Shown here piece by piece: positions 496 through 26,977 of a stretch of 37,075 nucleotides of DNA. The translations under genes were made by a program, and so were the position numbers. Origin of the DNA: a virus (taxonomy: Duplodnaviria; Heunggongvirae; Uroviricota; Caudoviricetes); the IMG/VR virus record IMGVR_UViG_3300010163_000013, positions 64,001 to 101,075 of that record; one strand, 5' to 3'. How positions within the stretch are numbered: position 1 is the stretch's first letter; every line of letters begins with the position of its first letter. The notes beneath the pieces were generated by a model that was not told the origin of the DNA, ran no database searches, and was given only the letters and a program-made list of their open reading frames with translations.

Positions 496-524
496 TTGAC
501 TAAATTAAATATATGTATTATAAT
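496..524 (+). promoter_or_regulatory. sigmaA-type promoter for the orf561-dnaE(N)-dnaN operon
   Basis: TTGACT (496-501), 17-nt spacer, TATAAT (519-524). Confidence 0.6.
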
Positions 525-560: not shown

Positions 561-1517
561 ATGGATTTAGATTTAATAAATATGTTAGTTGATTTTAATA
601 AAACACATAATAAATTTTATATAGATTTATTTATAGGTATTACTGCATCAAAGACATTATTATATTATGATACCTTTGATATTTTATCATATTTTACAAA
701 TAAAGATGATTTATATTATTTTTTGGAAAATATAGTTGATATAAAAATTATAAATTTTAATAATGAAGAAATGTTTGAAAGAAATCATATAACAGTTTTA
801 GACATTGTTAATTTTGTTGTTGCAAATAATAAATATGCCATTGCAGTTAATAACTTTTATTATCTTTTTCAATTTTACAAGTATTTTGACGAAAATAATA
901 AATTAAAATTTAATAATATGTTGAATTATTATTTGAATACAAATTTTATTGATAATTCATTATTTTCTGTACTTATACGCTATATATCAAAAGAAGATTT
1001 TTTTAATATTTTTGATAAGTTTAATTTATATAAAAAAACACATATAATTTATTACTTAATCAATAGTACAAGTCCTATTTATAAGTATGATATTAATGAT
1101 ATTTTAATATTGTTATGTAAATCAGACTTAATAACAGATAATATAAAAACAAATACAACACTATTATATAATATGCTTTCTCGTTATTGTAAAAAAACAC
1201 ATAATGAACAATTTATTATTAAAGATTATAATAAAGACTGTTTACAAATGTTAATAAATAAAATTGATATTTCTTTATTGTTTAATCAACTTTGTGGCAA
1301 AAAAAGAATATATATTATTGCTTTTTTAAATTTATTTAAACTATTATTTGATGAAAAAATGGAATATAAATATATTAAAAAGTTAAAAAATAAAAAATTT
1401 TATACAATAGTATTTTTAACTTATTTTAATGATAATTATTGTTATAAATACCCTAACAATAAAAAGTTTGTTGAGGGGTTAATCTTTATGAGCAAATTAA
1501 CAGATAATTTACTATAG
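561..1517 (+). CDS. Hypothetical protein, 318 aa, rich in N/K/Y/F/I
   Basis: Long ORF with promoter and RBS-like GGTAGGA upstream; no motif recognised. Confidence 0.7.
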   Translation: MDLDLINMLVDFNKTHNKFYIDLFIGITASKTLLYYDTFDILSYFTNKDDLYYFLENIVDIKIINFNNEEMFERNHITVLDIVNFVVANNKYAIAVNNFYYLFQFYKYFDENNKLKFNNMLNYYLNTNFIDNSLFSVLIRYISKEDFFNIFDKFNLYKKTHIIYYLINSTSPIYKYDINDILILLCKSDLITDNIKTNTTLLYNMLSRYCKKTHNEQFIIKDYNKDCLQMLINKIDISLLFNQLCGKKRIYIIAFLNLFKLLFDEKMEYKYIKKLKNKKFYTIVFLTYFNDNYCYKYPNNKKFVEGLIFMSKLTDNLL

Positions 1518-1563: not shown

Positions 1564-3054
1564 ATGAGTAGCCGTTTTGTAAATTTACATGTTCATTCTT
1601 TTTTTTCATTGTTAGATGGATTAACAGATGTAGAAAAACTAGTTGATAAAACAATAAAGTTAGGGCAGCCCGCTTCTTGTATTACAGACCATGGTAATAT
1701 GTTTTCTATTGTTAATCATTTTAAATATGCACAAGAGCAAGGACAGAAAGCAATAGCAGGGTTTGAAGCATATGTTGTAAAAGACCATACTATAAAAAAT
1801 AAAGGAGAAAAAAGAGAACATTTATTATTATTAGCAAAAAACAAAAGAGGATATGAACAATTATCTAAAATATGTTCTATTGGTAATGTTAAAGGAATGT
1901 ATTATAGACCAAGAATAGATGATAATTTATTAAGAGAAATAGGTACAGAAAATCTAATAGGCTCTTCTGCTTGTATTGCTGGTAGAATACCTCAATGTAT
2001 TATTAATGATAATATAGAGGAAGCCATAAAAGAAACAGAGCATTACTATAAATTGTTTAATGGAAATTTTTATTTAGAAATTCAACCAACTATGGAACCA
2101 TCACAAATAAAAGTTAATCAAGGCATAATAGAAATATCTAAAAAATTAGGTATACCATTAATAGCAACATCAGATGCTCATTATTTAGAAAAACAAGATA
2201 GTAAAACACATGAAATTTTACTTTGTTTACAATCTAAAAGTACATTAAATAACCCTAATAGATGGAAATTTACAGGAGATACTTTTTTTGTTATGTCATA
2301 TGATGATATAATAAATGCTTTTAAAGAAAATGGACATGAAAAATTAGATCAAAATGCTATATTTGAAGCAATTCATAATACAGTTGATGTAGCAAATCAA
2401 TGCAATTTGACTTTTGAATTTGGTAAATATTATTTACCTAAAATAGAACCACCAACAAATGATAAGGTATATAATAAAAAAGTAGAAAAACAAAAACAAA
2501 AAGATTCAAATTTTAAATCAACAGATATAAGTTATTTAAAACATTTATGTATGGAAGGATTAAAAAAGAAAGTACCTGATATTTTAACAAACAAAGAAAA
2601 AAGAAAAAAATATGTTGATAGATTAAACTATGAATTAGATGTTATTAAAAAAATGGGTTTTCCATCTTACTTTTTAATTGTTGCCGATTATATTAACTAT
2701 GCTGAACAAATAGAACATATGGGTGTTGGTCCAGGACGTGGATGTGCAACATCCATAAATAAAGTAAGATTAGTTAATGGTAATACAATAAACATTAGTA
2801 AAGTTAAGGTAGGTGATGTTGTAAAAGGTTATGACGAGCAGCCACACAAAGTAATAAAAACTCATAAATATGAATGTAATGAAGAAATAATAAAACTTAC
2901 TACAGAAAACAATAAGATTTTATCAATGACAAAAGACCACAAAATATATGCTATTAAAAAAGAAGATTTTGAAAATGGCATAAGAAAACCAAATTGGTAT
3001 ACAATGGATGAATTAGACGAGGGTGATTATATAGCTGAAATTGAAAATTTATAA
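1564..3054 (+). CDS. dnaE: DNA polymerase III alpha, N-terminal fragment (PHP domain and start of palm) fused to a split N-intein
   Basis: PHP motifs LHVHSFFSLLDG, ITDHG, FEAY, EHLLLLAKN, SACIAG, YLEIQ, ATSDAHY; DRLNYELDVIKKMGFPSYFLIVADYI; ends GVGPGRG followed by intein sequence and a stop. Confidence 0.95.
   Translation: MSSRFVNLHVHSFFSLLDGLTDVEKLVDKTIKLGQPASCITDHGNMFSIVNHFKYAQEQGQKAIAGFEAYVVKDHTIKNKGEKREHLLLLAKNKRGYEQLSKICSIGNVKGMYYRPRIDDNLLREIGTENLIGSSACIAGRIPQCIINDNIEEAIKETEHYYKLFNGNFYLEIQPTMEPSQIKVNQGIIEISKKLGIPLIATSDAHYLEKQDSKTHEILLCLQSKSTLNNPNRWKFTGDTFFVMSYDDIINAFKENGHEKLDQNAIFEAIHNTVDVANQCNLTFEFGKYYLPKIEPPTNDKVYNKKVEKQKQKDSNFKSTDISYLKHLCMEGLKKKVPDILTNKEKRKKYVDRLNYELDVIKKMGFPSYFLIVADYINYAEQIEHMGVGPGRGCATSINKVRLVNGNTINISKVKVGDVVKGYDEQPHKVIKTHKYECNEEIIKLTTENNKILSMTKDHKIYAIKKEDFENGIRKPNWYTMDELDEGDYIAEIENL
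2743..3054 (+). other. N-terminal half of a naturally split intein (IntN, 103 aa)
   Basis: Starts with Cys (CATSINKVRLVNG) right after GPGRG; block A-like ISKVKVGDVV; block B TxxH (MTKDH); ends WYTMDELDEGDYIAEIENL* with no terminal HN. Confidence 0.92.
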
Positions 3055-3087
3055 ATTAATATTAAAAATTGAAAGGAAAATAACTTT

Positions 3088-4260
3088 ATGTTAAAATTTA
3101 CAATCAATGCAAAAGAATTAAAATCTATAATTGATAGAAGTATATCTATAATAAATAAAGACGCTGTTTGTTATGGATATACAAATTTATTTTTTCAAAT
3201 TACAGAAAATGGAATATTAAAAGTATCAGGTACTAATGGTAATGATTATCTTGAAATTATAAGCGAGAATATTTTTGATGTATCTTCTGGTATTGTTGTA
3301 ATTAATATTAATGATTTAAAACTTATTTCAAAAATGAATAATGATGATATTAAATTTACAGATATTTCAACAACAAAAAATAAATTGGTTAATATACATT
3401 GTGGCAAGAAAAAACTTAATGTTGCAAATTATAATGATGCATCTATTTCTTTACCTAAAATGAATACAGAGGAAACTAAAATTTTATCAGTAACAGAAAC
3501 TTGGTTGCTTGAAACATTTTCTAATCTTTCTGTATTTACGTTAAATAGCGAAACAAGAAAAGAATTACAAACAGTTCATTTTAACACAAAAGATAAACGA
3601 GTTGAAGCAACTAACAGTCATTATATTGCAATTAGAAACTTAAAAGAAGAACAAATTTTTACAGAAGAACAAAATATTATGCTTGATAAAAACTGTTTAT
3701 CAATATTTAAAAAGGTTTTAGAAAAAAAATCAAATAATGAAATTATTATATCTCAAAATAACAAATATATAAAAGTCAAAGGTAAAAATTTCACATATAT
3801 TGTTCATAGACTTAGTAGTAATTATAATTATCTTAATTTAAACAATATATTTACAAATGATAACATATATAGTTTTGTTGCTGACAAAACAAATATGTTA
3901 GATATTATGAAATATAATTGTGAATTATTGAAAAACAATAAAAAGCCTGTTGTTTTCTATTGTAAAAATAAAGAAATATTTACATATGTTATAACAGATG
4001 GACGAGAAAGTTTAGATAAAATAGAAGCAGAAGATGTAATAATGGATGATATGTATATGACTTATAATCCTGAATATATTATGAAAGTTATGAAAATAAT
4101 AGATACAGATAAACCAGTATTTAGAATAAAATCAAGTTTACATCCTTTATTTATTGACGGTAATGAATATAAATTTTTAGTTTTACCAATAGCTATAAAT
4201 GATAAAGACACTATTAATAAAATACAAGAACGCATTAACAAAATAATAGAGATTAATTAA
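3088..4260 (+). CDS. dnaN: DNA polymerase III beta sliding clamp-like protein
   Basis: 390 aa; N-terminus MLKFTINAKELKSII...LKVSGTN; central RVEATNSHYIA; C-terminal YNPEYIMKVMK...FLVLPI; 33 nt downstream of dnaE(N). Confidence 0.82.
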   Translation: MLKFTINAKELKSIIDRSISIINKDAVCYGYTNLFFQITENGILKVSGTNGNDYLEIISENIFDVSSGIVVININDLKLISKMNNDDIKFTDISTTKNKLVNIHCGKKKLNVANYNDASISLPKMNTEETKILSVTETWLLETFSNLSVFTLNSETRKELQTVHFNTKDKRVEATNSHYIAIRNLKEEQIFTEEQNIMLDKNCLSIFKKVLEKKSNNEIIISQNNKYIKVKGKNFTYIVHRLSSNYNYLNLNNIFTNDNIYSFVADKTNMLDIMKYNCELLKNNKKPVVFYCKNKEIFTYVITDGRESLDKIEAEDVIMDDMYMTYNPEYIMKVMKIIDTDKPVFRIKSSLHPLFIDGNEYKFLVLPIAINDKDTINKIQERINKIIEIN

Positions 4261-4270
4261 AAACATAATA

Positions 4271-4310
4271 AAATCCTTAGTTTGATATATATAAAAACTA
4301 AGGATTTTTA
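4271..4310 (+). terminator. Intrinsic terminator after dnaN
   Basis: AAATCCTTAGTTT ... AAACTAAGGATTTT hairpin with T-tail. Confidence 0.75.
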
Positions 4311-4405
4311 ATTTTTTAAATAATTTAAAAAAACATTTACTTTTTTATAAATATATGATATAATTTACTAATATAACATATAAAAACGAAGCAAATAACA
4401 GAAAA

Positions 4406-4759
4406 ATGAATTTATATACATTATTTTTTGAGGATAAAATAAATATAAAAAATTTATTAATACCTGATAAATATGGAAATGAAAATAAACTTTTAATTGG
4501 TGGTAATAATATAAAAGGAATGTCAAAGATTATAGATGATAAATTAAATATTATTTTAAACAAATTTAATGCAATCAATATATATAATTTATATTTTTAT
4601 AAAAATAATTTTATTAATGAAATTAAAAACAAAACAATTTTAAAAAAATATAATTACAACATTAATATAATATTTATTGAACATCTTAATAAATATAAAC
4701 TGTATATTGATGGTGAGCGTTTAATTAATTTATTATTAAATGATAAGTTATCTTATTAA
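4406..4759 (+). CDS. Hypothetical protein, 117 aa
   Basis: ORF only; weak RBS. Confidence 0.45.
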   Translation: MNLYTLFFEDKINIKNLLIPDKYGNENKLLIGGNNIKGMSKIIDDKLNIILNKFNAINIYNLYFYKNNFINEIKNKTILKKYNYNINIIFIEHLNKYKLYIDGERLINLLLNDKLSY

Positions 4760-4891
4760 GATATAAAAAGTACAATCAATTTATTATATTAAACAATAAA
4801 GAAAACAGAGATAGTATGCAAAAGTATATTTTAAAAATAAAATAAATAAAATAATTGACATAAAATTAAAAGGAGGACAATATTATATAAT

Positions 4892-5656
4892 ATGTTAAAT
4901 AAGAAAAACATATCAGATACTATTATTAATTGTAATGAGTTTTATAATAAACAAATATATCATAAAATACATAATAAGCGATTAAATGGTATAAACTATA
5001 AACTATATTCCATAGCACAAACTATTTTATTAAATAAAATTAACAAATGTATTAAATTGTCTAAAGCATCGGAACCTGACTTTACTTTAATGAAAGAATT
5101 AGGAGAAACAATGAAACTACATCAAAGTACAAACAAGTTTGACAATTGGAGTGAATATGATATAAATACAGTTAAAATGTATTTGCCTAAGTGTGTTGTT
5201 AGTGGAGATTTTTATAGGTTTATAGGGCTAAAGTCTATAGAAATTAATCAAATAATAGAAAGTAATAATTATGATATAGATAACCTATCAGACATAGAAA
5301 ATGCTATTAAACAAGTCATAATTCCAACAGGAGTTGCTTGTTGTACAAAAGATAAATCGTATGTTGATAACTCAACATTAGATAGTGGTAAATTATATAT
5401 AGATAGGAATAATAAAAATAATGAAGTTGTTATAGATGTACCTTGTAGATTAATTATTACAATTAATGACGGTATAGATGTAGCAATGTTTTGGGAAGAA
5501 TTAAAAAATAATGCTTATGATATTGATTATGATGAATTTGTAAAAGATTTTGGAGAATGCATGGGGCAATTAGTAAGTGACGAACAAGAAGTTATTGGAC
5601 AAATGACATCTAACTATAAAATATACAATTTAAAAGAAATACAAAATTATTTATAA
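4892..5656 (+). CDS. Hypothetical protein, possible ADP-ribosyltransferase (R-S-E type) fold
   Basis: AAGGAGG upstream. Motif order FYRFIG ... VACCTKD ... ITINDGIDV ... EQEVI resembles the ART catalytic Arg, STS-equivalent strand and ExE loop. The ORF is solid; the function is tentative. Confidence 0.4.
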   Translation: MLNKKNISDTIINCNEFYNKQIYHKIHNKRLNGINYKLYSIAQTILLNKINKCIKLSKASEPDFTLMKELGETMKLHQSTNKFDNWSEYDINTVKMYLPKCVVSGDFYRFIGLKSIEINQIIESNNYDIDNLSDIENAIKQVIIPTGVACCTKDKSYVDNSTLDSGKLYIDRNNKNNEVVIDVPCRLIITINDGIDVAMFWEELKNNAYDIDYDEFVKDFGECMGQLVSDEQEVIGQMTSNYKIYNLKEIQNYL

Positions 5657-5671
5657 TAAGGAGAAAATAAT

Positions 5672-6256
5672 ATGATTGACATTGAAAAATATAATCAAGA
5701 TAAAAAACAAGGATTAGAAAAACAACAAGAAAAAAATAGTAAAAAAGAAAAAAAAATGAAATTAATTAATGTTGCTCAATCTATAATATTAAATAAGTTA
5801 TATTCAAGTATTGAAAATTATGAGTTATATTATAATAAAATAATCTCTAATGATAATTCAGAAAACATATTGGAATTGCAAAACAAAGCACAACAATGTA
5901 AAAATTTTATAATTAAATATGCAAGAGGGATAAATACATTTAACGTATACAAAGAAATACTGGACATAACATACAAATGTATATTAAGTAAAAAAGAAAA
6001 TACATTATTACGTTGTAATGAAAATAGTGTTGAAGATTTTTTAAAAGCGGTTTATTTAAATTATAAAAAAGAATTTGAAGAAATAGAAAATGGGTTTAAA
6101 AACATTAAATCAAAAGACAATATTATACCATATTCTATTATTGCTGGATATGTTTTTAGAAAGCGTGCAAGTGAACGTAATAAACCATATTTTAAAACCT
6201 CTCCGTTATCATTATATCGTCAGCAATTTACCCAATTATATAAAAATACACATTAA
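5672..6256 (+). CDS. Hypothetical protein, 194 aa
   Basis: AAGGAG RBS; followed by hairpin AGAGGGA/TCCCTCT plus T-run at 6262-6288. Confidence 0.75.
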   Translation: MIDIEKYNQDKKQGLEKQQEKNSKKEKKMKLINVAQSIILNKLYSSIENYELYYNKIISNDNSENILELQNKAQQCKNFIIKYARGINTFNVYKEILDITYKCILSKKENTLLRCNENSVEDFLKAVYLNYKKEFEEIENGFKNIKSKDNIIPYSIIAGYVFRKRASERNKPYFKTSPLSLYRQQFTQLYKNTH

Positions 6257-6323
6257 TGTTTAGAGGGATTAATTTCCCTCTTTTTTTTATTTAACCAAAA
6301 ATAATTTATTATTATTTTATTTA

Positions 6324-6352
6324 TTGACTTTTATTATATTTTAATTTATAAT
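6324..6352 (+). promoter_or_regulatory. sigmaA-type promoter
   Basis: TTGACT (6324-6329), 17 nt, TATAAT (6347-6352). Confidence 0.6.
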
Positions 6353-6405
6353 ATAAATTACATTTAAAACATTTTATATAATGGATTCCAAAGGAGAGTT
6401 AGAAA

Positions 6406-6666
6406 ATGAATTTTAAGGAATTAACAAATCTTATAGCAAAAGGTATAAGTGGTGAAAATAATGCTTGTATTATCGGTGTGGCAATAGATGCAGGAGATAA
6501 TCTTGATATAACAGGATTTTTTGATGGTGGTAGTTATAATACTCATTCAATTATACAATTTTTAGTTGAAAATTATCTATCACCTTTAGATGATGAAACA
6601 GCTTCCTTTGAAAGAGATTGTTTAATTAAAATTATTGAAGAAGATAAACAAAGAAGAATAAAATAA
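6406..6666 (+). CDS. Hypothetical protein, 86 aa
   Basis: AAAGGAGAG RBS and promoter upstream. Confidence 0.75.
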   Translation: MNFKELTNLIAKGISGENNACIIGVAIDAGDNLDITGFFDGGSYNTHSIIQFLVENYLSPLDDETASFERDCLIKIIEEDKQRRIK

Positions 6667-6761
6667 TTTCAGATTTTATAAAAATAGATTTATACATATA
6701 AAAAATAAAATATAGTAAAAAATATTACAAGTTACAATAAAATTATTAAAGGGAGTTATAA

Positions 6762-7112
6762 ATGAGAAAATTAACAAAAAAACGAGTTATAAAAAATTTC
6801 AGAAAGAAATGGTACAAAATATCTAAAAAAACGATTAAACAAAAAGAAAAATATAATAATAAATTTTTTAAAGAAAAATTTTTAAACGATCGTTCTTGTT
6901 GTATATATGCTATTTTACAAGCACCTACATTACATAATATATGTGAGTTTTGCCCCATTGAATGGTTTAGTGAATGCAATAGCTTTAAGTGCATAAATCA
7001 ACAATTTAGCGGAGACAATAAAGGACTATATAAATTATGGGAAACTGCTGAAAATTGGAAAGAGGCTGCTGAATTAGCTGAAATAATATCAAAATTACCT
7101 GAAAAAATGTAA
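6762..7112 (+). CDS. Cys-rich hypothetical protein, paralogue A
   Basis: AAAGGGAG RBS; CC...CEFCPIEW...C...GLYKLW...WKEAAELAEIISKLPEK; similar to the next gene. Confidence 0.78.
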   Translation: MRKLTKKRVIKNFRKKWYKISKKTIKQKEKYNNKFFKEKFLNDRSCCIYAILQAPTLHNICEFCPIEWFSECNSFKCINQQFSGDNKGLYKLWETAENWKEAAELAEIISKLPEKM

Positions 7113-7161
7113 ATAAAAATGATATAAATTATTAAGAAACTAATAAGGGAGATAACAAAAA

Positions 7162-7608
7162 ATGAAAATTACAAAAGAACAAGCCATAATTGAACACCGT
7201 AAAATGTGGCAGCGGATAGCTAAAGAAACAAATAAACAAAAAAGGGTTGTTGCTATAGAGGAATATTTTAAAAAGTATTTTCCTTATAGTGTTTTAAATA
7301 ATTCTTTTTGTTGTGAGTATGGTTATCATAAATCAGTTAATAAGAAATTTAAAAGGTTAATATGTAGTATTAAGAAATGGTTAAAATACAATATATTTTG
7401 TTTTGACAATTGTAAATATTGTAGTCAACTTTCTTGTTTTTCTTGCCCAATAGATTGGGGCAACGAAACTGATTATCAAATGTGCTATAATAAAACACAT
7501 CATGATGGAAATGGTTTATATGCTATATGGTGTAGAACTGAAGATTGGAAAAAAGCTGCTAAGTTGGCAGAGCAGATAGCAGAATTACCAGAAAGAAAGG
7601 AAATATAA
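7162..7608 (+). CDS. Cys-rich hypothetical protein, paralogue B
   Basis: AAGGGAG RBS; FCCEY...CFSCPIDW...C...GLYAIW...WKKAAKLAEQIAELPER. Confidence 0.8.
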   Translation: MKITKEQAIIEHRKMWQRIAKETNKQKRVVAIEEYFKKYFPYSVLNNSFCCEYGYHKSVNKKFKRLICSIKKWLKYNIFCFDNCKYCSQLSCFSCPIDWGNETDYQMCYNKTHHDGNGLYAIWCRTEDWKKAAKLAEQIAELPERKEI

Positions 7609-7611
7609 AAA

Positions 7612-8241
7612 ATGAAAGAGATATTATTCAAAGGCAAAAGAACAGACAGTAATAAATGGATTGAGGGTTATTATTATCCAAATAAATTGGCTGTTTCAAA
7701 AGAAGAATTGGTTGAGATACTTAATCAATTTTTTAGTATAGAAGATACAGACGCTTATTGGCTTACAAGAGTTAAATCTGCTTTTGATGTCGGAACAGTG
7801 ACTATTGATGATTTTGAAGAGTTTACTAATGAAACTATTGATGAACTTGCAGATTTTATAATAGAGAAAATAGCATGTACTTCAAATTACATTAATGACA
7901 TTGAAGTTAATCAAAAAACTATTGGATAATATACAGGCTTATTAGATAAAAAAGGTAAGAAGATTTTTAAGGGCGATATTGTTAAAAAAACTTTTGAAAC
8001 AACAATTAAGAAAGATGATTATGTAGATATTTATGGTTATGATGTAGGAGAAACGATATTTGTTCCTTCCAAAGGATTTTGTATAAAGAATCCATATCAT
8101 CATGTAGAAATAGATGGAGAAATTACAAAGAAATATGAAAAAACAAAAATGTATAAAAACATAGTATCATATAGATGTGAGATTATTGGAAATATTTATA
8201 ATAATCCTAAATTATTAAAGGCAAAAAATAAAAAATCTTGA
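7612..8241 (+). pseudogene. YopX-family protein interrupted by an in-frame TAA at 7927-7929
   Basis: N-terminus MKEILFKGKRTDSNKWIEGYY; TIG*YTGLLDKKGKKIFKGDIV (family pattern TIGQYTGLKDKNG.EIFEGDIV); same frame continues to EIIGNIYNNPKLL and TGA at 8239-8241. Confidence 0.82.
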
Positions 8242-8373
8242 ATTTTTAAAATTTATAAATAATAATGAAGTTACTTATATTTGTAAACATATGAAAATTA
8301 AAAAATATTGTACAAAAAAGTTACATAAAAAGGTGAAAAATAATTTAACATAAAAAATATTTATACAAAAGGA

Positions 8374-8793
8374 GTGGGATATTTGTTAATCCATTTACTT
8401 GGAAGTAACAAACAATATATTCAAACAATTGGTAAGAATATTGCATATGAATTTAAGTATGATTTTATATCAATCAATAATAAAAATGAATATGATAAAT
8501 TTATTTTTAATATAAAAAATACTAAAGATGTAATATTGGATTATCCATTTAATATATCAATATCTACTGATTATCTTTTAATTATTTTAAAAGATGATAA
8601 TGATATAAATAGATATATAGATAATAAATGCCCTTATTTAATAATAGATATTAATAGCCGTAATTGTAATAAAATTTGTAAATATATAAATTTTTATATT
8701 AAGTATATGCAAATTTTTTTCAAAGAACACAAAATAAAACCTTGTGGGCAGATTGATACAAATAAATTTTTAAAAAGATATCCTATTGTATAA
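8374..8793 (+). CDS. Hypothetical protein, 139 aa (GTG start)
   Basis: AAAAGGAG directly upstream; N-terminus loosely resembles an eroded P-loop kinase start. Confidence 0.5.
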   Translation: MGYLLIHLLGSNKQYIQTIGKNIAYEFKYDFISINNKNEYDKFIFNIKNTKDVILDYPFNISISTDYLLIILKDDNDINRYIDNKCPYLIIDINSRNCNKICKYINFYIKYMQIFFKEHKIKPCGQIDTNKFLKRYPIV

Positions 8794-8848
8794 AACTATT
8801 TACAAATTTAGACATATAGTTTATAATAAAAAAAAGGAGCGATTACTT

Positions 8849-9823
8849 ATGAAAACATTTAATATTAATGATGTAAATAATACAGACGAGGTAGTTGTAG
8901 ATTTATTTATTAAGCGATTAGAAATAAAGATGGCAAAAAATAATAAATTATATATTGAAGGAAACGGTATTAATAATAACTTAGACATAAATTTTAAGAA
9001 ATGGGAAGCGACACAAGAACAATATAACAAATTAAAAAACATAAAATTTATGAGAATTAAGGGTATAATTAATGAATACAATGGAATAAAACAAATAATA
9101 TTAAGTAATTATAAAGAAATTCCCGAAGATAATATTGTATTAAGTGATTATATGCCATCTTCTAATTTAAATATTAATGATGTACAGAATTTTTTTGACA
9201 ATATCATTAATTCTCTTAATAATGATAAGTATAAAAAAATTATTAATGAATTATTGATTGATGCATTCTATATTCAAGGTGCCTCAACTAAATATCATCA
9301 TAATAAAAATATGGGGTTATTAGAACATACTTATCAAATGTTAAATGAAGCTAAATTATTAATAGACAATGATAAAACAGGGTTATATAAAAATGTAAAT
9401 ACTGATTTGTTATATACAGCAATATTATTGCATGATATAGGCAAAATAGAAGAATTAGAAAGCAATGAGTATGGTATTATTGAAAAATATTCTTATATAG
9501 GAGAATTATTGGGACATATCATAATTTGTGTTCAACAAATATCACAAGCCTGTAACAAATTAAATATAGATATTTTTGACAATGATATTGTATTGCTTAC
9601 ACATTGTATAATATCACATCATGGTAGACCTGAATGGGGTTCAAATAAGTACCCAATGATTATTGAAGCACAAATTTTATTTCAATTAGATTATAATAGT
9701 ACTCATATTGATATGTTCAATAATATATTAAGTGAAATAAATGATAACGAATTTAGTAATCGTCAATTTTTAATGAATGATAGGAAAATATATAAAAATG
9801 TGCCACAAGTAGATAATAATTAA
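8849..9823 (+). CDS. yhaM: YhaM/Cbf1-family 3'-5' exoribonuclease (OB fold plus HD domain)
   Basis: HHNKNMGLLEHT, LLHDIGKIEEL, LLGHI, HCIISHHGRPEWGS..P..IEA; OB-like RIKGIINEYNGIKQI. AAGGAG at 8834-8839 favours ATG 8849 over the track's start at 8786. Confidence 0.85.
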   Translation: MKTFNINDVNNTDEVVVDLFIKRLEIKMAKNNKLYIEGNGINNNLDINFKKWEATQEQYNKLKNIKFMRIKGIINEYNGIKQIILSNYKEIPEDNIVLSDYMPSSNLNINDVQNFFDNIINSLNNDKYKKIINELLIDAFYIQGASTKYHHNKNMGLLEHTYQMLNEAKLLIDNDKTGLYKNVNTDLLYTAILLHDIGKIEELESNEYGIIEKYSYIGELLGHIIICVQQISQACNKLNIDIFDNDIVLLTHCIISHHGRPEWGSNKYPMIIEAQILFQLDYNSTHIDMFNNILSEINDNEFSNRQFLMNDRKIYKNVPQVDNN

Positions 9824-9849
9824 TATTATAAAATATAAATAATTTCAAT

Positions 9850-9884
9850 AAAAAAAGAAGATATATTAATTATCTTCTTTTTTT
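9850..9884. terminator. Bidirectional terminator between convergent genes
   Basis: AAAAAAAGAAGATA / TATCTTCTTTTTTT inverted repeat. Confidence 0.7.
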
Positions 9885-9900
9885 ATATTATATATTAATT

Positions 9901-10275
9901 CTAATTACTTTTATTTAATATTGTTATTGTTCGCTTTTTAGATTTTAATTTTATATATTTTGATTTATTATTTAATGATAAATTGTTTTGTACCTTTATT
10001 GAAAGTATTTTATATTCACACTGCTGAAATAAAAATATTTCAGTTAATGCCATTATAGTATTTTGTATTGTTATTAAATCTATATTATCAAAAGTTATTT
10101 GTATACCAAATATATTATCAACTATATTATTTCTTGATAATGAATATTTTACAATATATTCTTTTAATGTATTTAATATATATTTTATATATACATTAAA
10201 AGAATGTTGAATTGTATCATATTTTTTTGTTTTTATTCCTAATGTTATTATTATAGTTTTCTCCATAAACACCAA
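9901..10275 (-). CDS. Hypothetical protein, about 124 aa
   Basis: ORF with AAAGGA upstream; no motif recognised. Confidence 0.55.
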   Translation of the reverse strand: MVFMEKTIIITLGIKTKKYDTIQHSFNVYIKYILNTLKEYIVKYSLSRNNIVDNIFGIQITFDNIDLITIQNTIMALTEIFLFQQCEYKILSIKVQNNLSLNNKSKYIKLKSKKRTITILNKSN

Positions 10276-10999
10276 ATCCTTTTAAATCTATTTATATTCA
10301 GTTTAAATGCCCTTATAAAGTGTTTTTATACATAAGGCATATAAAAATACATATTAAATTAAAAGTGCTTTTAAAACGGCAATAAAAAGGTTTTAAAATA
10401 TGTTTATATTATAAGTTTTAATATAATAAGCCTACAATTTTGTTAAAATCGTTTTATAATATAAATAATGTAACAATATATTAAGGTTATAAAATAGACA
10501 ACACATACATTCCTAAAGTTAATCTATTTTAAAAAATTTTTATAGATATTTTTATTCTCCTATATTATATATATTATATCATTAATTTCTTTAAAATTAA
10601 AGCTATATTTAACGATTACTTTATTATTTATCTATTAATAATAAATTCGTATAAAATTTTATTAAGTATTATCATATCCAATCAATCATAATTTTTATGA
10701 TTAAAGAATATCTTATTTAAGATAGATAAGATATTAAACATATAATTAAAATAAATTTATATAAATAAATATAGTTAAAGGATTATACCTTTTTTCAAAC
10801 ACTATTATAAAATATTGCATAGGGGAGTGTGTTATTTTGATAAATAATTTTATAAAAATATTTAAATTATAATTATATAATATGTTATTTTATGCTTATA
10901 TGGAAAAATAAAATTATTATAAACTTTAAAATTGAATCACAAATAGACCGTTGAAAGTAATTATTTTTTCAACAGCCTAAATACTAAAGAAAACAAAAT

Positions 11000-11893
11000 T
11001 TATTTTTTATTATTCCAATATTCAGTCCAATCAGTATTTGCATAATCATAATTAATTTGATTTTGAATATCAAAATAATATTGTTGTTTTGCATTATACA
11101 ATACAGTTAAAATATATGCTCTTGGATTATGTATTTTAGTAGTTTGTTCATTATATTTTTCTATAACATAAATAATATCATCACAATTTAATTTTAACAA
11201 TCTACTAATTATTATATCTATGGGAGTAGCAGAGCCATTAATATTAATATTATGTTTTTGTGAGTTTACAGTATCATAAATAATGTCAAGAATATAATTT
11301 ATATCATTTTCACTTAACTTAGGATTAATATTAAATACCATATTATAATCATATAAATTTTTTAAAAAGTCTAAGGAATATTTTTCATTTTTTTCTTGAC
11401 TTTTATTATTAGTTGTGTTATTATAATTATGAACATTACTTTCATATTTTATGTTTTGAGGTTGATTTTTCTTTTTCATAAAAGAATTATTAACCTCTTT
11501 TTTTATGTAAATTTCTTCTAAAGATTTATCATCTAATGTCTTATTTTCAAAGTTTTTAATAAGTTCTTTTGCTTCATTTATATCTTTAGCTTTCCATAAT
11601 TCTTCAAAATCATAAATAGTATAATAATTACTCGTTTGACTACCATCTTTACGAAATCTATTCTCAATCTTAATTATACTTTTATCTTTTAATGATTTTA
11701 AGACATATCGAACCTTCCTTGTACAACAATTAGCTCTTTCAGCAATTGCTTTTACAGAAGGGAAACAGGTATTATTTGAATTACAAAATGTTTTAAGCGT
11801 TACTAATATAGTTTTTTCAGCTATACTTAATAATTTACTTGCCCATAAATCTATATGGATTTTAGCAAATGCTCTTGTTGTTGCCATACGCAA
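11000..11893 (-). CDS. Putative replication initiator (N-terminal winged HTH plus DUF6017-like C-terminus)
   Basis: LSIAEKTILVTLKTFCNSNNTCFPSVKAIAERANCCTRKVRYVLKSL...IKIENRFRKDGSQTSNYYTI (HTH_36-like); RLLKLNCDDIIYVIEKY...KIHNPRAYILTVLYNA (DUF6017-like). Probable start is ATG 11887 with AGGAAG RBS. Confidence 0.72.
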   Translation of the reverse strand: MRMATTRAFAKIHIDLWASKLLSIAEKTILVTLKTFCNSNNTCFPSVKAIAERANCCTRKVRYVLKSLKDKSIIKIENRFRKDGSQTSNYYTIYDFEELWKAKDINEAKELIKNFENKTLDDKSLEEIYIKKEVNNSFMKKKNQPQNIKYESNVHNYNNTTNNKSQEKNEKYSLDFLKNLYDYNMVFNINPKLSENDINYILDIIYDTVNSQKHNININGSATPIDIIISRLLKLNCDDIIYVIEKYNEQTTKIHNPRAYILTVLYNAKQQYYFDIQNQINYDYANTDWTEYWNNKK

Positions 11894-11923
11894 TCTTCCT
11901 TTATAAATATATTTTTTAGTTAT

Positions 11924-11995
11924 ATTATAATATAATTTTAAAACGGAGTCAATAATTAAATTTATATTGAAAAAACTTTAAATGTTATGTATAAT
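11924..11995. promoter_or_regulatory. Divergent sigmaA promoter pair: minus strand for the initiator, plus strand for dnaE(C)
   Basis: Minus: TTGACT (11952-11947), 17 nt, TATAAT (11929-11924). Plus: TTGAAA (11967-11972), 17 nt, TATAAT (11990-11995). Confidence 0.6.
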
Positions 11996-12031
11996 AAAAT
12001 AAATAGCCAAATAACTAGGGAGGGATAAAAT

Positions 12032-12145
12032 TTGAAATTTACAAAAATAAAGAAAAAAGAATATGAAAATTATGACGGTTATGTTTACGATTTAACTGTA
12101 GAAGAAAGTCATTCGTATAATATTGATAATTTAATTGTTCATAAT
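12032..12145 (+). other. C-terminal half of the split intein (IntC, 38 aa)
   Basis: MKFTKIKKKEYENYDGYVYDLTVEESHSYNIDNLIVHN then Ser+1: block F VYDLTV..HSY and block G VHN/S. Confidence 0.93.
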
Positions 12146-14911
12146 TCAGGAGCAGGTTCATTAGTTTGTTATACTACTAATATAACAAAAGTTGATCCTC
12201 TTGAATATGATTTATTATTTGAAAGATTTTTAAATCCTGATCGTGGGCATTTGCCAGATGTTGATGCAGATTTTTGTATTAATAATGGATATAAAGTATT
12301 TGATTATTTAAATAAAAAATATGGGAAAGAACATTGTTGTAATATTATTACATTTCAAAGATTACAAACTAAAGCTATTATAAAAGATTTAGCAAGGGCA
12401 TTAGAAATAGATTTTGTAGAAGTTAATAATTTTACAAAAACAATACCAGATGTTCTTGATGGTAAACCTGTTCATATTAAAGACTTAATTGAACATCCTC
12501 AATATAAATGGTTTTTTGATAAATATCCTGTTATTAAAGAACACGCTATTAAATTAGAGGGTATACCAAAATCAAATTCACAACACCCTGCTGGTATAGG
12601 CATTGTACCACAAGAAATAACAGATTTAACACCTGTTATAAGAGCGAAAGAAGAAGTTGGAACTGAAGAAATGTATTTATCTTCATTTGAAAAACAACAA
12701 TGTGAAGACATAGGAATTGTTAAATATGATATTCTTCGTCTTAGTAATATTTCTGATATAAAAACAATGGTAAATATGATAAATCTACACTATAATATGG
12801 AATTAACAGAAGAATCAATACCGTTAAATGATAAAAAAACTTGGGAACTGATAAGTAGTGGCAAAACGTTAGGAGTATTTCAATTTGCCTCACCTCTTGG
12901 AATAGATGTTGTTACAAAAATAAAACCAAATAACATAGAAGAATTAGCAGCGGCTAATGCTTTTATTCGACCAGGAGCGTCTGGTTTGCCAGAATATATT
13001 GCAGGCAAACAGAATTATAAAAATACAAAAAAAATACATCCTAAATTAGATAAATATTTAAAGAAAACATTTGGTAGTATTGTATATCAAGAACAAATTA
13101 TGCAGCTTATTTCTGAATTAATGGGTATTTCTTTTGGTCAAGCTGATATATATAGACGAGCATTAGAAAAGCCTAATAAAGGTAAAAACAAAAAAATAGT
13201 AGATGATTTCAATAATAATGTTGTTGAAAAGGCTACACAATTAGGTTTTTCTAAAGAAATAGCTAATAGTGTCAGAAAATTGATTATTGAAAATTCAGGC
13301 TATGGTTTTAATAAATGTTTAAGTGGTTCAGAATATATTTACGGTTATTCAGATGATATTAAAACCTTATATAATAAATATCAAAAATATAAAAAAAATA
13401 TTTTGTTAAAAAATCCTTTAAACATTAAAACTATTAGTATGGACAATGAACAACAACCATATAAAAATACAATAAAAGACATACAATATAGTGGATTTGA
13501 ACATACTTTTGAAATTGTTTTAGAATCATTTAAAACCATAAAAGCGACTAAAAATCATAAATTCCCCATATATAAATATGGTAATATTCAAGAATTAACA
13601 TTAGATAAAATAAACAAAGGAGATTATTTATTTGTTTATGATTTTAAAAACAATATTTTTAAAAAAGAAAAAATATTAAGAATAACCATTCAACCAAAAG
13701 AAAATGTATATGATATTACAATGCAAAATCCTTATCATAATTTTATTATAAATAATGGTATATTAACTTGTAATAGTCACGCTGTATGTTATTCTATAAT
13801 TTCATATTGGACAGCTTGGATGAAAATAAATTATCCATTAATATTTTATACTGTAATGTTAAACTCTTGTAAGGATAGTGAATTTGCTTTATTTATTCAA
13901 GAGGCTAAAAATAGAGGTATAACAATTAATCCACCTAATATAAATAAATCAAAATACTTATGTACTATAGAAGATAAAAATACTAATTCAATACGAATAG
14001 GATTAAAAGCAATAAAAGGAGTAGGCCCTGCCGCTGTTCAATGTATAGAAGAAAAACAACCTTTTAAAACTTTAAATCATTTTTTTGAAATAAAAACATC
14101 AGCAGTAAATAAAAAAGTAATTGAAGTTTTATCTAAAGCGAGTGCTTTTAGTGGATTAGGCATAGAAATAAATAATATATCTACTTCATTGACAAACACT
14201 AATATAGTGTATCTTAATAATGAACAATTAAAATTATTTTTTGATGTGCTTAACGAAACATCTAAAACAAAAACTATACCTAAGTATGCTATACCTGTTG
14301 ATATGATAAAAGGTAAAATATTAAATTCTTTACAATTATTTATTGAAAAGGATAATACGATTATTGTTCCAGAGGATAAATTAAATATTATAGATATAAC
14401 ATTAACAGAAAACGATAAGAAAAAATATAAAACTCGTAAAACGGCAAAATCGGCATTTACTATACCTGAACAAAATAATAAATTATCTATATTTGAAAAA
14501 GCATTAGTTTATTGTGAAAATCAATTATTAAATGTTAAACCTAATATAATAAAAAGTTATATTGATGAAATGAAAATTGTAGGATATTCATTTATAGAAC
14601 ATCCTTGTATTAAATATATCAATAAGATATATGATCCTAAAAATCCTACATCAACATTTAATGATATGGAAGAAACGTTATTTATGGTTTGTGGAATTAT
14701 TAATGATATAGAAGAAAAATTAACAAAAAATAATAAAAAATATTATTTAATAACCTTAATTACACCTGTTGATACAATTACAATGTCTTTATGGGAAAAT
14801 CAATATAAACAATATGAAAATATCATAAAACAATATAATATAATTAAATCAGTAGGTATTAAAAAGTTTGGGCGATTTAATATTAATAAATTGGCTGAAA
14901 TAAAATTATAG
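12032..14911 (+). CDS. dnaE: DNA polymerase III alpha, C-terminal fragment, preceded by a split C-intein and containing a cis mini-intein
   Basis: GGAGG RBS and TTG start. After VHN comes SGAGSLVCY...VDPLEYDLLFERFLNPDR..PDVDADF, QHPAGI, VKYDILRL, GVFQF, GSIVYQEQIM, GYGFNK/SHA, PPNINKS, IRIGLKAIKGVG (HhH) and a C-terminal OB fold. Confidence 0.95.
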   Translation: MKFTKIKKKEYENYDGYVYDLTVEESHSYNIDNLIVHNSGAGSLVCYTTNITKVDPLEYDLLFERFLNPDRGHLPDVDADFCINNGYKVFDYLNKKYGKEHCCNIITFQRLQTKAIIKDLARALEIDFVEVNNFTKTIPDVLDGKPVHIKDLIEHPQYKWFFDKYPVIKEHAIKLEGIPKSNSQHPAGIGIVPQEITDLTPVIRAKEEVGTEEMYLSSFEKQQCEDIGIVKYDILRLSNISDIKTMVNMINLHYNMELTEESIPLNDKKTWELISSGKTLGVFQFASPLGIDVVTKIKPNNIEELAAANAFIRPGASGLPEYIAGKQNYKNTKKIHPKLDKYLKKTFGSIVYQEQIMQLISELMGISFGQADIYRRALEKPNKGKNKKIVDDFNNNVVEKATQLGFSKEIANSVRKLIIENSGYGFNKCLSGSEYIYGYSDDIKTLYNKYQKYKKNILLKNPLNIKTISMDNEQQPYKNTIKDIQYSGFEHTFEIVLESFKTIKATKNHKFPIYKYGNIQELTLDKINKGDYLFVYDFKNNIFKKEKILRITIQPKENVYDITMQNPYHNFIINNGILTCNSHAVCYSIISYWTAWMKINYPLIFYTVMLNSCKDSEFALFIQEAKNRGITINPPNINKSKYLCTIEDKNTNSIRIGLKAIKGVGPAAVQCIEEKQPFKTLNHFFEIKTSAVNKKVIEVLSKASAFSGLGIEINNISTSLTNTNIVYLNNEQLKLFFDVLNETSKTKTIPKYAIPVDMIKGKILNSLQLFIEKDNTIIVPEDKLNIIDITLTENDKKKYKTRKTAKSAFTIPEQNNKLSIFEKALVYCENQLLNVKPNIIKSYIDEMKIVGYSFIEHPCIKYINKIYDPKNPTSTFNDMEETLFMVCGIINDIEEKLTKNNKKYYLITLITPVDTITMSLWENQYKQYENIIKQYNIIKSVGIKKFGRFNINKLAEIKL
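13316..13774 (+). other. Contiguous mini-intein (153 aa) in dnaE at FNK/SH
   Basis: GYGFNK|CLSGSEYI...ATKNH (block B)...VYDITMQNPYHNFII (block F) NNGILTCN|SHAVCY. Removing it restores YGFNKSHA. No endonuclease domain. Confidence 0.92.
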
Positions 14912-26464: not shown

Positions 26465-26977
26465 TTATTCTATTTGTTTCCATATATTATTTTCTTTTTT
26501 CCATATTTTTTGATTACTGCTGCCCCTAAATTTAAGTGTTATATCTCGCTGTTCTAAAATAAAGGGACCATCTATTATATAATCGCTTAGATTTAATATT
26601 TCTTTACATTTAGAAAATAAATATTCATAAGTATATCCTGTATAAATCCATAATTTTTTATTAGGAAACTTTTCTTTAAATTTACTACTAATATATAAAG
26701 AAAAATCTATATTATCTATTGGATCTCCACCTGATAATGTCAATCTCTTAATATAATTTTTATTTAAAGCATTAAATAATTCATCTAATATTTTTTTAGT
26801 AAATATCTTACCACCGTCTTTATCCCAAGTGGTTTCATTATGACAACCTTTACAATGGTGTGTACAATATTGCATATACAAAGAAACACCAAAATATAAG
26901 CCATTATTTGTTTCACACTTATCTATACCTGCATACCTTATTTTATTATTTAATATATCATTAAAAATGTTTATCAT
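26465..26977 (-). CDS. nrdG: Anaerobic ribonucleotide reductase activating enzyme (radical SAM)
   Basis: CTHHCKGCHN (CxxxCxxC), LTLSGGDP, IYTGYT, DGPF, FRGSSNQ; overlaps the end of nrdD. Confidence 0.93.
   Translation of the reverse strand: MINIFNDILNNKIRYAGIDKCETNNGLYFGVSLYMQYCTHHCKGCHNETTWDKDGGKIFTKKILDELFNALNKNYIKRLTLSGGDPIDNIDFSLYISSKFKEKFPNKKLWIYTGYTYEYLFSKCKEILNLSDYIIDGPFILEQRDITLKFRGSSNQKIWKKENNIWKQIE

What the first reader, a model, noticed from the sequence alone, without database searches (positions are those of the whole stretch)
1564..14911. Phage replicase fractured by a naturally split intein, halves about 9 kb apart with 12 genes between them
Seen in sequence: dnaE(N) ends GVGPGRG|C...TKDH...EIENL* (IntN, 103 aa). 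dnaE(C) starts with a 38-aa IntC ending VHN|SGAGSLV. Joining the exteins restores GPGRGSGAGSLV, and removing the second intein gives about 1161 aa, a normal DnaE length. Each half has its own sigmaA-type promoter (496-524, via orf561; 11967-11995), RBS and downstream terminator, so they are made independently. Established: the cyanobacterial split DnaE intein sits at a different site (near FNKSH), and the phage-like fractured genes of Dassa et al. 2009 (e.g. gp41-1) typically have a homing endonuclease between closely spaced halves. Here the 8977-bp gap (3055-12031) holds a clamp, YhaM, a Rep-like initiator and accessory genes, with no endonuclease I can recognise. The break lies in the conserved GS motif and the catalytic Asp motifs (PDVDADF, KYDIL) are in the C-half. 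Inference: polymerase activity depends on trans-splicing, which could act as a post-translational AND-gate or timer for replication.
Basis: partly seen in the sequence, partly recalled or inferred. Interest (0 to 1): 0.92.

Follow-up and report, generated by a model that had tools for sequence, protein, structure and literature searches.

The report
Split-intein DnaE polymerase in huge phage
This uncultured phage encodes its DNA polymerase (DnaE) as two genes 9 kb apart whose ends carry the two halves of an intact-looking self-splicing protein element, but the same arrangement turns out to be common in related phages, so it is a new member of a known kind rather than a one-off.

Summary
ORF 1564-3054 is the DnaE PHP domain plus the start of the palm. 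It ends GPGRG|C followed by a 103-aa N-intein. ORF 12032-14911 starts with a 38-aa C-intein ending HN|S and carries the rest of DnaE, including a second, contiguous 153-aa mini-intein. Twelve ORFs lie between the halves, and none is a recognisable homing endonuclease.

It is not unique. 69 of 107 related N-extein clusters stop at the same point with a 92-111-aa N-intein, and matching C-halves begin with the same C-intein. In all eight phage contigs where I located both halves (this window included), the N-half lies upstream on the same strand. The gaps are 1.1 to 13.7 kb and hold varied cargo.

The catalytic residues (Cys1, TxxH, HN, Ser+1) are invariant across the family. Contiguous inteins occupy the same site in Bacillus phage G, in cyanobacteria and in one relative where the two halves are only 3 residues apart. 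A complex model joins the halves (0.85 against 0.00 for the best control).

Best reading: an active trans-splicing intein at the stage after endonuclease loss and separation of the halves, as the Dassa 2009 model predicts. The AND-gate or timer idea has no support. This scan has noted split DnaE inteins on other phage DNA many times.

The parts
496..524 (+). Promoter-like site (TTGACT-17-TATAAT) upstream of orf561 and dnaE-N
   Evidence: It is a consensus match only; the number of such matches in the region is no higher than in shuffles.
561..1517 (+). ORF of 318 aa with unknown function, immediately upstream of dnaE-N
   Evidence: Searches found no family. Weak tblastn matches lie upstream of the N-half in relatives L006 and L076.
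1564..2742 (+). dnaE N-extein (393 aa): PHP domain and start of the palm, ending GPGRG
   Evidence: The RBS GAAAGGAAG lies upstream.
2743..3054 (+). IntN (103 aa: Cys1, block B TKDH, acidic tail ending EIENL) plus the stop codon
   Evidence: Cys1, Thr and His are invariant in 19 aligned relatives.
3088..4260 (+). Sliding clamp (DnaN-like), probably co-transcribed with dnaE-N
   Evidence: Pfam DNA_pol3_beta_2 at 2.8e-06; PHROG 947 at 9.3e-28; only 33 nt separate it from dnaE-N.
4406..8793 (+). Eight ORFs of 86-254 aa with unknown function (cargo in the gap)
   Evidence: No endonuclease family was hit.
6262..6281 (+). Terminator-like hairpin inside the gap, followed by a promoter-like site at 6324-6352
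8786..9823 (+). YhaM-like HD-domain protein
   Evidence: Pfam HD. NCBIfam YhaM at 6.5e-55 over the full length, but below the curated cutoff. Conserved in the gaps of L006 and L076.
9901..10275 (-). ORF of 124 aa with unknown function on the opposite strand
11000..11893 (-). DnaD-like or replication-initiator-like protein (HTH_36, DnaD_N, DUF6017), divergent from dnaE-C
11894..12031 (.). Divergent intergenic region with promoter-like sites on both strands (11952-11924 minus, 11967-11995 plus) and the RBS AGGGAGGG at 12018-12025
12032..12145 (+). IntC (38 aa, TTG start, basic head, blocks F and G ending VHN)
   Evidence: His, Asn and Ser+1 are invariant in 17 aligned relatives, and relatives start at the same position.
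12146..13315 (+). dnaE C-extein part 1 (starts SGAGSLV; contains the PDVDADF and KYDIL motifs; palm and fingers)
13316..13774 (+). Second, contiguous 153-aa mini-intein at FNK|SH (starts CLSG, ends TCN; penultimate residue is Cys)
   Evidence: It is absent in P0126 and P0127, and carries an HNH insert in P0125.
13775..14911 (+). dnaE C-extein part 2 (HhH and the C-terminal region) plus the stop codon
14915..14948 (+). 14-bp hairpin followed by a U-rich stretch; likely terminator of dnaE-C

Best explanation
The window carries a genuine, naturally split canonical intein in the dnaE gene of an uncultured, very AT-rich, probably huge phage. The N-half (PHP domain and start of the palm) ends in a 103-aa IntN. 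The C-half begins with a 38-aa IntC. After separate translation, the acidic IntN tail and the basic IntC head should associate into one HINT domain. Cys1, the TKDH block, the terminal His-Asn and Ser+1 would then carry out protein trans-splicing and restore GPGRG-SGAGSLV in the palm. A second mini-intein in the C-half splices in cis, giving a mature DnaE of about 1161 aa. The arrangement belongs to a large family of phage DnaE genes split at exactly this site. It most likely descends from a contiguous intein whose middle was opened, presumably at the endonuclease position. The endonuclease was then lost and the gap filled with variable cargo genes, while the two halves stayed collinear. This corresponds to stages III-IV of the Dassa 2009 gene-breaking model. 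Shown here: the sequence anatomy, the conservation, the family-wide arrangement and the modelled docking. Inferred: that splicing actually occurs, and the evolutionary route.
For: The anatomy and the restored junction are confirmed. The family is large: 69 of 107 related N-extein clusters end with an IntN of 92-111 aa after GP(G/A)RG|C. C-halves of 794-1045 aa begin at the same IntC start. Cys1, Thr and His of block B, and His-Asn-Ser+1 are invariant at 30-82 percent identity. In all eight contigs where I located both halves (this window included), they lie on one strand with the N-half upstream. Gaps are 1.1, 4.85, 5.5, 7.3, 7.9, 9.0 (this window), 9.25 and 13.7 kb, which also argues against misassembly. 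Contiguous inteins occupy the same site in Bacillus phage G gp329 (245 aa), in P0135, and in cyanobacterial DnaE (414 aa, LAGLIDADG). In P0013 the stretches matching the window's IntN (53 percent identity) and IntC (68 percent, extein flank included) are 3 residues apart in a single chain. The complex model of IntN with IntC scored ipSAE 0.85, with the best of 3 controls at 0.00. That mark was reached by 58 of 80 solved complexes and 2 of 110 mismatched pairs. The runs agreed in at least 86 percent of contacts and the partner pLDDT was at least 66. This pass may partly reflect likeness to solved split inteins. Rfam found no intron and ARAGORN no tRNA in the window.
Against: No splicing assay, transcript data or proteomics exist for this phage. 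The intein is only distantly similar to solved inteins (profile E about 1e-4 to 1e-3 against PI-SceI and gp41-1), so its activity cannot be inferred from a close characterised relative. Block A (CATSINKV) is somewhat atypical. Other phage DnaE splits recorded by this scan carry splicing-dead intein remnants, so an intact motif set is necessary but not sufficient.
Confidence: 0.85

Rival explanations
1. The split is used as a regulatory device. Because the halves sit in different transcription units, polymerase activity would require both units to be expressed (a post-translational AND-gate or timer), and this would be why the arrangement is kept.
For: In this phage the halves are separated by a terminator-like hairpin (6262-6281) and a minus-strand gene block. 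The C-half has its own promoter-like site, a strong RBS and a terminator hairpin. The N-half is coupled to the clamp gene.
Against: The separation is not conserved. Gaps range from 1.1 kb with three small same-strand ORFs to 13.7 kb, the cargo differs between relatives, and fused and intein-less forms are nested in the same clade. Promoter-like matches are at chance frequency in this AT-rich DNA. A neutral ratchet explains persistence without any regulatory role, because re-fusing the halves needs a precise deletion.
Confidence: 0.1
2. The intein halves no longer splice and serve only as a non-covalent clasp holding two DnaE chains together.
For: Earlier notes of this scan describe such dead-intein clasps in other phage DnaE splits. 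No activity data exist here.
Against: Every splicing residue is present and invariant across a diverse family: Cys1, TxxH, His-Asn and Ser+1. That pattern is expected for a splicing element under selection and not for a mere docking module.
Confidence: 0.05
3. The 9-kb separation is an assembly artefact, or a chimeric contig, of a gene that is really contiguous.
For: The contig is a metagenome assembly. Reads could not be examined.
Against: The N-half stop codon and the RBS-preceded C-half start codon fall at the same positions as in dozens of independent assemblies. Seven other contigs show the same order and strand, including the 74-percent-identical relative with a 9.25-kb gap.
Confidence: 0.02

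Closest known systems
Cyanobacterial split DnaE intein (DnaE-n/DnaE-c; Wu et al. 1998, Caspi et al. 2003, as cited in PMC2677866; PolIII-alpha insertion point 'a' in PMC4760082)
   Same: Same host protein. A canonical split between blocks B and F, with a long IntN (about 100 aa) and a short IntC (about 36 aa). No endonuclease, and the halves are encoded in separate transcription units.
   Different: Different insertion site. Cyanobacterial N-partners end KFAEY|CLSY in the fingers, whereas this one sits at GPGRG|S in the palm. The nucleophile at +1 is Ser rather than Cys. The host is a phage, not a cell. The halves stay collinear and 1-14 kb apart rather than at distant loci. There is no close sequence similarity.
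Fractured genes of Dassa, London, Stoddard, Schueler-Furman and Pietrokovski 2009 (PMC2677866), including three DnaE loci and gp41-1
   Same: Phage-like DNA, split inteins in replication genes including DnaE, IntN of 88-105 aa and IntC of 33-54 aa, and electrostatically complementary halves. The paper's model predicts endonuclease loss followed by separation of the halves.
   Different: Those loci have a free-standing homing endonuclease between closely spaced halves. Here the gap is 9 kb with 12 ORFs and no recognisable endonuclease. I could not determine whether one of their three DnaE sites is this one, because the supplement is not held.
Contiguous inteins at the same GPGRG|S site: Bacillus phage G gp329 and relatives, P0013, and cyanobacterial DnaE with a LAGLIDADG domain
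   Same: Identical insertion point, and homologous blocks A, B, F and G.
   Different: Those are single-chain, cis-splicing inteins of about 140 to 417 aa. The window's intein is encoded in two genes.
Nanoarchaeum equitans PolB split intein (as cited in PMC2677866)
   Same: A replicative polymerase encoded in two genes, each carrying one intein half.
   Different: A family B polymerase, in an archaeon, with an unrelated insertion site.

Membership tests
Naturally split canonical (class 1) intein | N- and C-terminal HINT parts lie on two separate polypeptides, at the end of one extein gene and the start of the other | tested here: met
   A stop codon follows the 103-aa IntN, and an RBS plus TTG start precedes the 38-aa IntC. 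Pfam and NCBIfam give weak Hint, Intein_splicing and intein-terminus hits, all below their curated cutoffs except TIGR01443.
Naturally split canonical (class 1) intein | Block A nucleophile (Cys or Ser) as the first intein residue, and block B TxxH | tested here: met
   Cys394 follows GPGRG, and TKDH is present. Both are invariant in 19 sequences.
Naturally split canonical (class 1) intein | Block G terminal Asn (usually His-Asn) followed by a +1 Cys, Ser or Thr | tested here: met
   VHN|S. His, Asn and Ser are invariant in 17 sequences.
Naturally split canonical (class 1) intein | Removing the intein restores a conserved host motif | tested here: met
   GPGRG plus SGAGSLV equals the motif in intein-less DnaE.
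Naturally split canonical (class 1) intein | The halves associate into one HINT domain | tested here: met
   The complex model scored 0.85 against a best control of 0.00 (a model only, and likeness to solved split inteins may contribute). Both halves map to adjacent stretches of the contiguous mini-intein in P0013.
Naturally split canonical (class 1) intein | Protein trans-splicing demonstrated | not testable with these tools
   This needs co-expression followed by western blot or mass spectrometry.
Fractured gene sensu Dassa 2009 | A free-standing homing endonuclease gene between the two split-intein halves | tested here: not met
   No HNH, GIY-YIG, LAGLIDADG or Vsr-like hit among the 12 gap ORFs. 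None at E <= 0.001 among 66 gap ORFs of seven relatives either, apart from two NUMOD3 proteins in one relative.
Fractured gene sensu Dassa 2009 | Phage-like context and a replication or nucleotide-metabolism host gene | tested here: met
   The source is an IMG/VR viral contig. Neighbouring genes include a clamp, SSB, ThyX, NrdD, RecA and an SbcD-like protein.
Cyanobacterial DnaE split intein family | Insertion at the fingers site before CFNKSH (PolIII-alpha point 'a') | tested here: not met
   The window's split is at GPGRG|S, and cyanobacterial N-partners end KFAEY|CLSY. The window's second, contiguous intein sits near that site, at FNK|SH.

The most novel reading that the evidence does not exclude
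The broken intein site has become an expandable insertion slot. In this phage lineage, cargo genes accumulate between the two dnaE halves (1 to 14 kb) while the halves stay collinear. The intein state has switched several times between split, fused and absent within one DnaE clade. In some phages, possibly this one, the resulting separate transcription of the halves may be used to time replication. The family would also be a large natural pool of uncharacterised Cys1/Ser+1 split inteins.
Probability: 0.15. Interest if true: 0.6.

Novelty: new member of a known kind. Interest (0 to 1): 0.4.

Why it matters
The finding adds a large, apparently undescribed family to the short list of natural split inteins: phage DnaE split at the palm GPGRG|S site. 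It also gives a graded series of loci, with gaps of 1 to 14 kb plus fused and intein-less relatives. That series illustrates the later stages of the gene-breaking model proposed in 2009. In practical terms, dozens of diverged IntN/IntC pairs with a Cys1/Ser+1 chemistry are candidate protein-ligation tools. It does not reveal a new mechanism.

Tried and rejected
- **Phage genome collection:** tblastn of both halves against 50,697 deposited phage genomes found no phage with the split IntN. Only Bacillus phage G has an intein here, and it is contiguous.
- **Bacillus phages KLEB27-3 and WH1:** their multi-piece DnaE genes are broken at other places and have no intein at this site, so they were dropped as comparators.
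- **Single-protein scan of IMG/VR:** it found only one distant locus. An alignment query was needed to reach relatives.
- **PDB by sequence:** no close solved relative of the IntN was found.
- **Literature:** searches found no description of this site as split. The supplement of Dassa 2009 is not held, so I could not compare their three DnaE sites.
- **RNA-level explanations:** Rfam and ARAGORN found nothing in the window, so an intron is not supported.
- **Mobile cassette:** the repeat search found no flanking repeats that would mark the gap as one.
- **Public names:** the cluster look-up gave no names or accessions for relatives.
- **Single origin of the split:** the extein tree does not show the split forms as one clade. 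At least 5 changes are forced by well-supported branches, so I make no single-origin claim.
Full report
**Source and context.** The window is the last 37 kb of a 101-kb IMG/VR viral contig that CheckV rates about 20 percent complete. GC content is about 20 percent. The surrounding genes form a replication and nucleotide-metabolism module: a sliding clamp, a YhaM-like HD protein, a DnaD-like initiator, an SbcD-like phosphoesterase, SSB, ThyX, anaerobic ribonucleotide reductase NrdD and RecA.

**Checking the observation.**
- ORF 1564-3054 (P0001, 496 aa) has a PHP domain and the first 69 positions of the Pfam DNA_pol3_alpha model.
- It ends GVGPGRG, followed by Cys and 102 further residues that include TKDH, and closes with EIENL-stop.
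- ORF 12032-14911 (P0002, 959 aa) starts at a TTG six bases after an AGGGAGGG Shine-Dalgarno sequence.
- It begins with 38 residues ending VHN, followed by SGAGSLV. It then carries the rest of DNA_pol3_alpha, the finger domain and HHH_6.
- A second, contiguous 153-aa mini-intein sits at FNK|SH (13316-13774).
- Removing both inteins gives 1161 aa.
- The joined extein sequence GPGRG-SGAGSLV is exactly what intein-less relatives have.
- Twelve ORFs fill the 8977-bp gap, and none hits a homing-endonuclease family in Pfam or PHROGs.

So the core observation is right.

**Expression signals.**
- The two promoters are good consensus matches, but such matches are as frequent in shuffled sequence of this composition.
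- No terminator follows the N-half, because the clamp gene begins 33 nt later.
- A 14-bp hairpin with a U-rich tail follows the C-half.
- The halves are nonetheless very likely in different transcription units. The gap contains a terminator-like hairpin at 6262-6281 and two genes on the opposite strand. The C-half sits in a divergent promoter region.

**How common it is.** A search with the N-half returned dozens of proteins of about 470-550 aa that cover 96-100 percent of it at 40-74 percent identity. In a parse of the top hits, 69 of 107 N-extein clusters end with Cys plus 92-111 residues after GP(G/A)RG, and nearly all close with a GDY-x-x-E-like acidic tail. A search with the head of the C-half returned C-halves of 794-1045 aa that begin M/L-K-F-x-x-I and run into VYDLTV...HSYN...VHN|SG(A/G)GS. 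A full-library HMMER search with the IntN alone gave 329 representatives at E <= 0.001. By a rough motif count, 38 of the 138 newly returned representatives I checked carry an IntN-like C-terminal tail.

**Arrangement in relatives.** I could locate both halves on eight contigs, this window included. In all eight they lie on the same strand with the N-half upstream.

| Contig | Gap between halves |
|---|---|
| L013 | 1.1 kb (three small ORFs) |
| L017 | 4.85 kb |
| L021 | 5.5 kb |
| L076 | 7.3 kb |
| L020 | 7.9 kb |
| This window | 9.0 kb |
| L006 (74 percent identical N-half) | 9.25 kb |
| 416-kb genome rated 99 percent complete (L015, L012) | 13.7 kb |

This repeated pattern makes a misassembly very unlikely, which matters because reads could not be examined.

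The gap content is fluid. By tblastn, only the YhaM-like gene is shared with two relatives. Sixty-six gap ORFs from seven relatives hit assorted families (amidase, AP endonuclease, cytosine methylase, nucleotidyl transferase, SpoIIID, radical SAM, thymidylate kinase). None hit classical homing endonucleases, apart from two NUMOD3-bearing proteins next to one C-half.

**Does it look active?** In alignments of 19 IntN and 17 IntC sequences at 30-82 percent identity, several residues are invariant: the nucleophile Cys1, the Thr and His of block B, and His-Asn-Ser+1 of block G. The last 30 residues of IntN carry a net charge of -8. The first 15 of IntC are net positive with a KKK run. This fits the electrostatic docking described for other split inteins (PMC2677866).

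A complex model of IntN plus IntC, using alignments A1 and A2, scored ipSAE 0.85 in three runs. The best of three controls scored 0.00. The runs agreed in at least 86 percent of contacts, and the partner pLDDT was at least 66. That mark was reached by 58 of 80 solved complexes and 2 of 110 mismatched pairs in the tool's calibration. Because split-intein complexes have been solved, this pass may partly reflect likeness, and it does not show splicing.

**Origin.** Contiguous inteins occupy the identical site in several places:
- Bacillus phage G gp329 (245 aa) and its relatives.
- The full-length protein P0135.
- Cyanobacterial DnaE, where the intein is 414-417 aa and carries a LAGLIDADG domain.
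- Protein P0013, a contiguous mini-intein. The stretch matching the window's IntN (53 percent identity) and the stretch matching its IntC (68 percent, extein flank included) are separated by three residues.

In a quick maximum-likelihood tree of N-exteins, the split, contiguous and intein-less forms are interleaved within one well-supported phage clade. At least five state changes are forced by well-supported branches. The split state has therefore either arisen or been lost repeatedly, or the intein moves between lineages. I cannot say which.

The simplest account is the one Dassa and colleagues proposed. A contiguous intein is opened, the endonuclease is later lost, and the two parts drift apart (stages III-IV). 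The twist here is that the parts remain collinear while cargo accumulates between them.

**Comparison with what is known.**
- Natural split inteins in DnaE are long known in cyanobacteria, at a different site in the fingers. N-partners there end KFAEY|CLSY (PMC2677866; PMC4760082, which lists only that site as split).
- Dassa 2009 reported three phage-like DnaE fractured loci at other sites, each with an endonuclease between the halves. I could not learn whether one is this site.
- The jumbo-phage overview by Iyer and colleagues places phage G among phages with a Pol III alpha, but the passages returned by my term search say nothing about its intein or these splits.
- I found no paper describing a phage DnaE split at GPGRG|S.
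- The intein has only remote sequence similarity to solved inteins.
- This scan's own records hold 158 notes on split DnaE inteins in phages on other DNA, so the general phenomenon is frequent.

**Verdict.** This is a real and probably active trans-splicing intein, and one member of a large, apparently unpublished phage family. The mechanism is standard. Its sense of rarity and the AND-gate idea are not supported by the comparative data, although separate transcription of the halves in this particular phage is likely. Interest is moderate. It rests on the size and diversity of the family, on the series of gap sizes, and on possible use as ligation tools.

Noticed in passing
window 13316-13774: The second intein in the same gene is a 153-aa contiguous mini-intein at FNK|SH, with Cys rather than His before the terminal Asn. 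Relatives have either no intein here (P0126, P0127), a mini-intein with Ser or Cys at that position (P0128, P0125), or a version with an HNH endonuclease insert (P0125).
   Followed up: partly
L007 (Bacillus phage G) 746-11509: Phage G DnaE is in three ORFs. gp329 has a contiguous intein at GPGRG|S and then stops shortly after FLNPTRGKLP. A homing endonuclease gene (gp330) follows. gp331 continues the extein and ends near EALGL. After seven more genes (about 5 kb), gp339 resumes at VKFDILGL. The ends of gp331 and gp339 show no intein halves, so this third break is of another kind.
   Followed up: partly
L006 20742-21488; L017 6612-8257; L018 11978-12989: In several relatives the C-half is interrupted again after residue 65-75 (just after FLNPxRGxLPD) by 0.3-1.2 kb. 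The N-side fragments end in a recurring translated tail like YWASKVNLAQGCAA, which suggests a conserved intron-like insert. The window has no interruption at this site.
   Followed up: no
L020 12615-12884 (G003 45985-46242): A free-standing 89-99-aa ORF between the two dnaE halves resembles the last ~85 residues of the window's IntN (49-50 percent identity). It is an orphan IntN-like fragment of unknown partner.
   Followed up: no
L076 / P0009 (865 aa): A 61-percent-identical N-half carries an extra large intein inside the PHP domain, in addition to the terminal IntN.
   Followed up: no
window 10276-10999: A 724-bp AT-rich non-coding stretch with several short degenerate tandem repeats lies next to the DnaD-like initiator gene. 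It is a candidate replication origin.
   Followed up: partly
window 26465-29228: An anaerobic ribonucleotide reductase NrdD (755 aa, with ATP-cone and glycyl-radical domains) has a 170-aa ORF beside it. Together with ThyX, the YhaM-like gene and SpoIIID in a relative, this points to an anaerobic, low-GC Firmicute host.
   Followed up: no
L012 243-2913: Two large NUMOD3-containing proteins (322-470 aa by different gene calls, and 583 aa) lie directly upstream of the C-half in the 416-kb relative. They may be endonuclease-related remnants in the gap.
   Followed up: no
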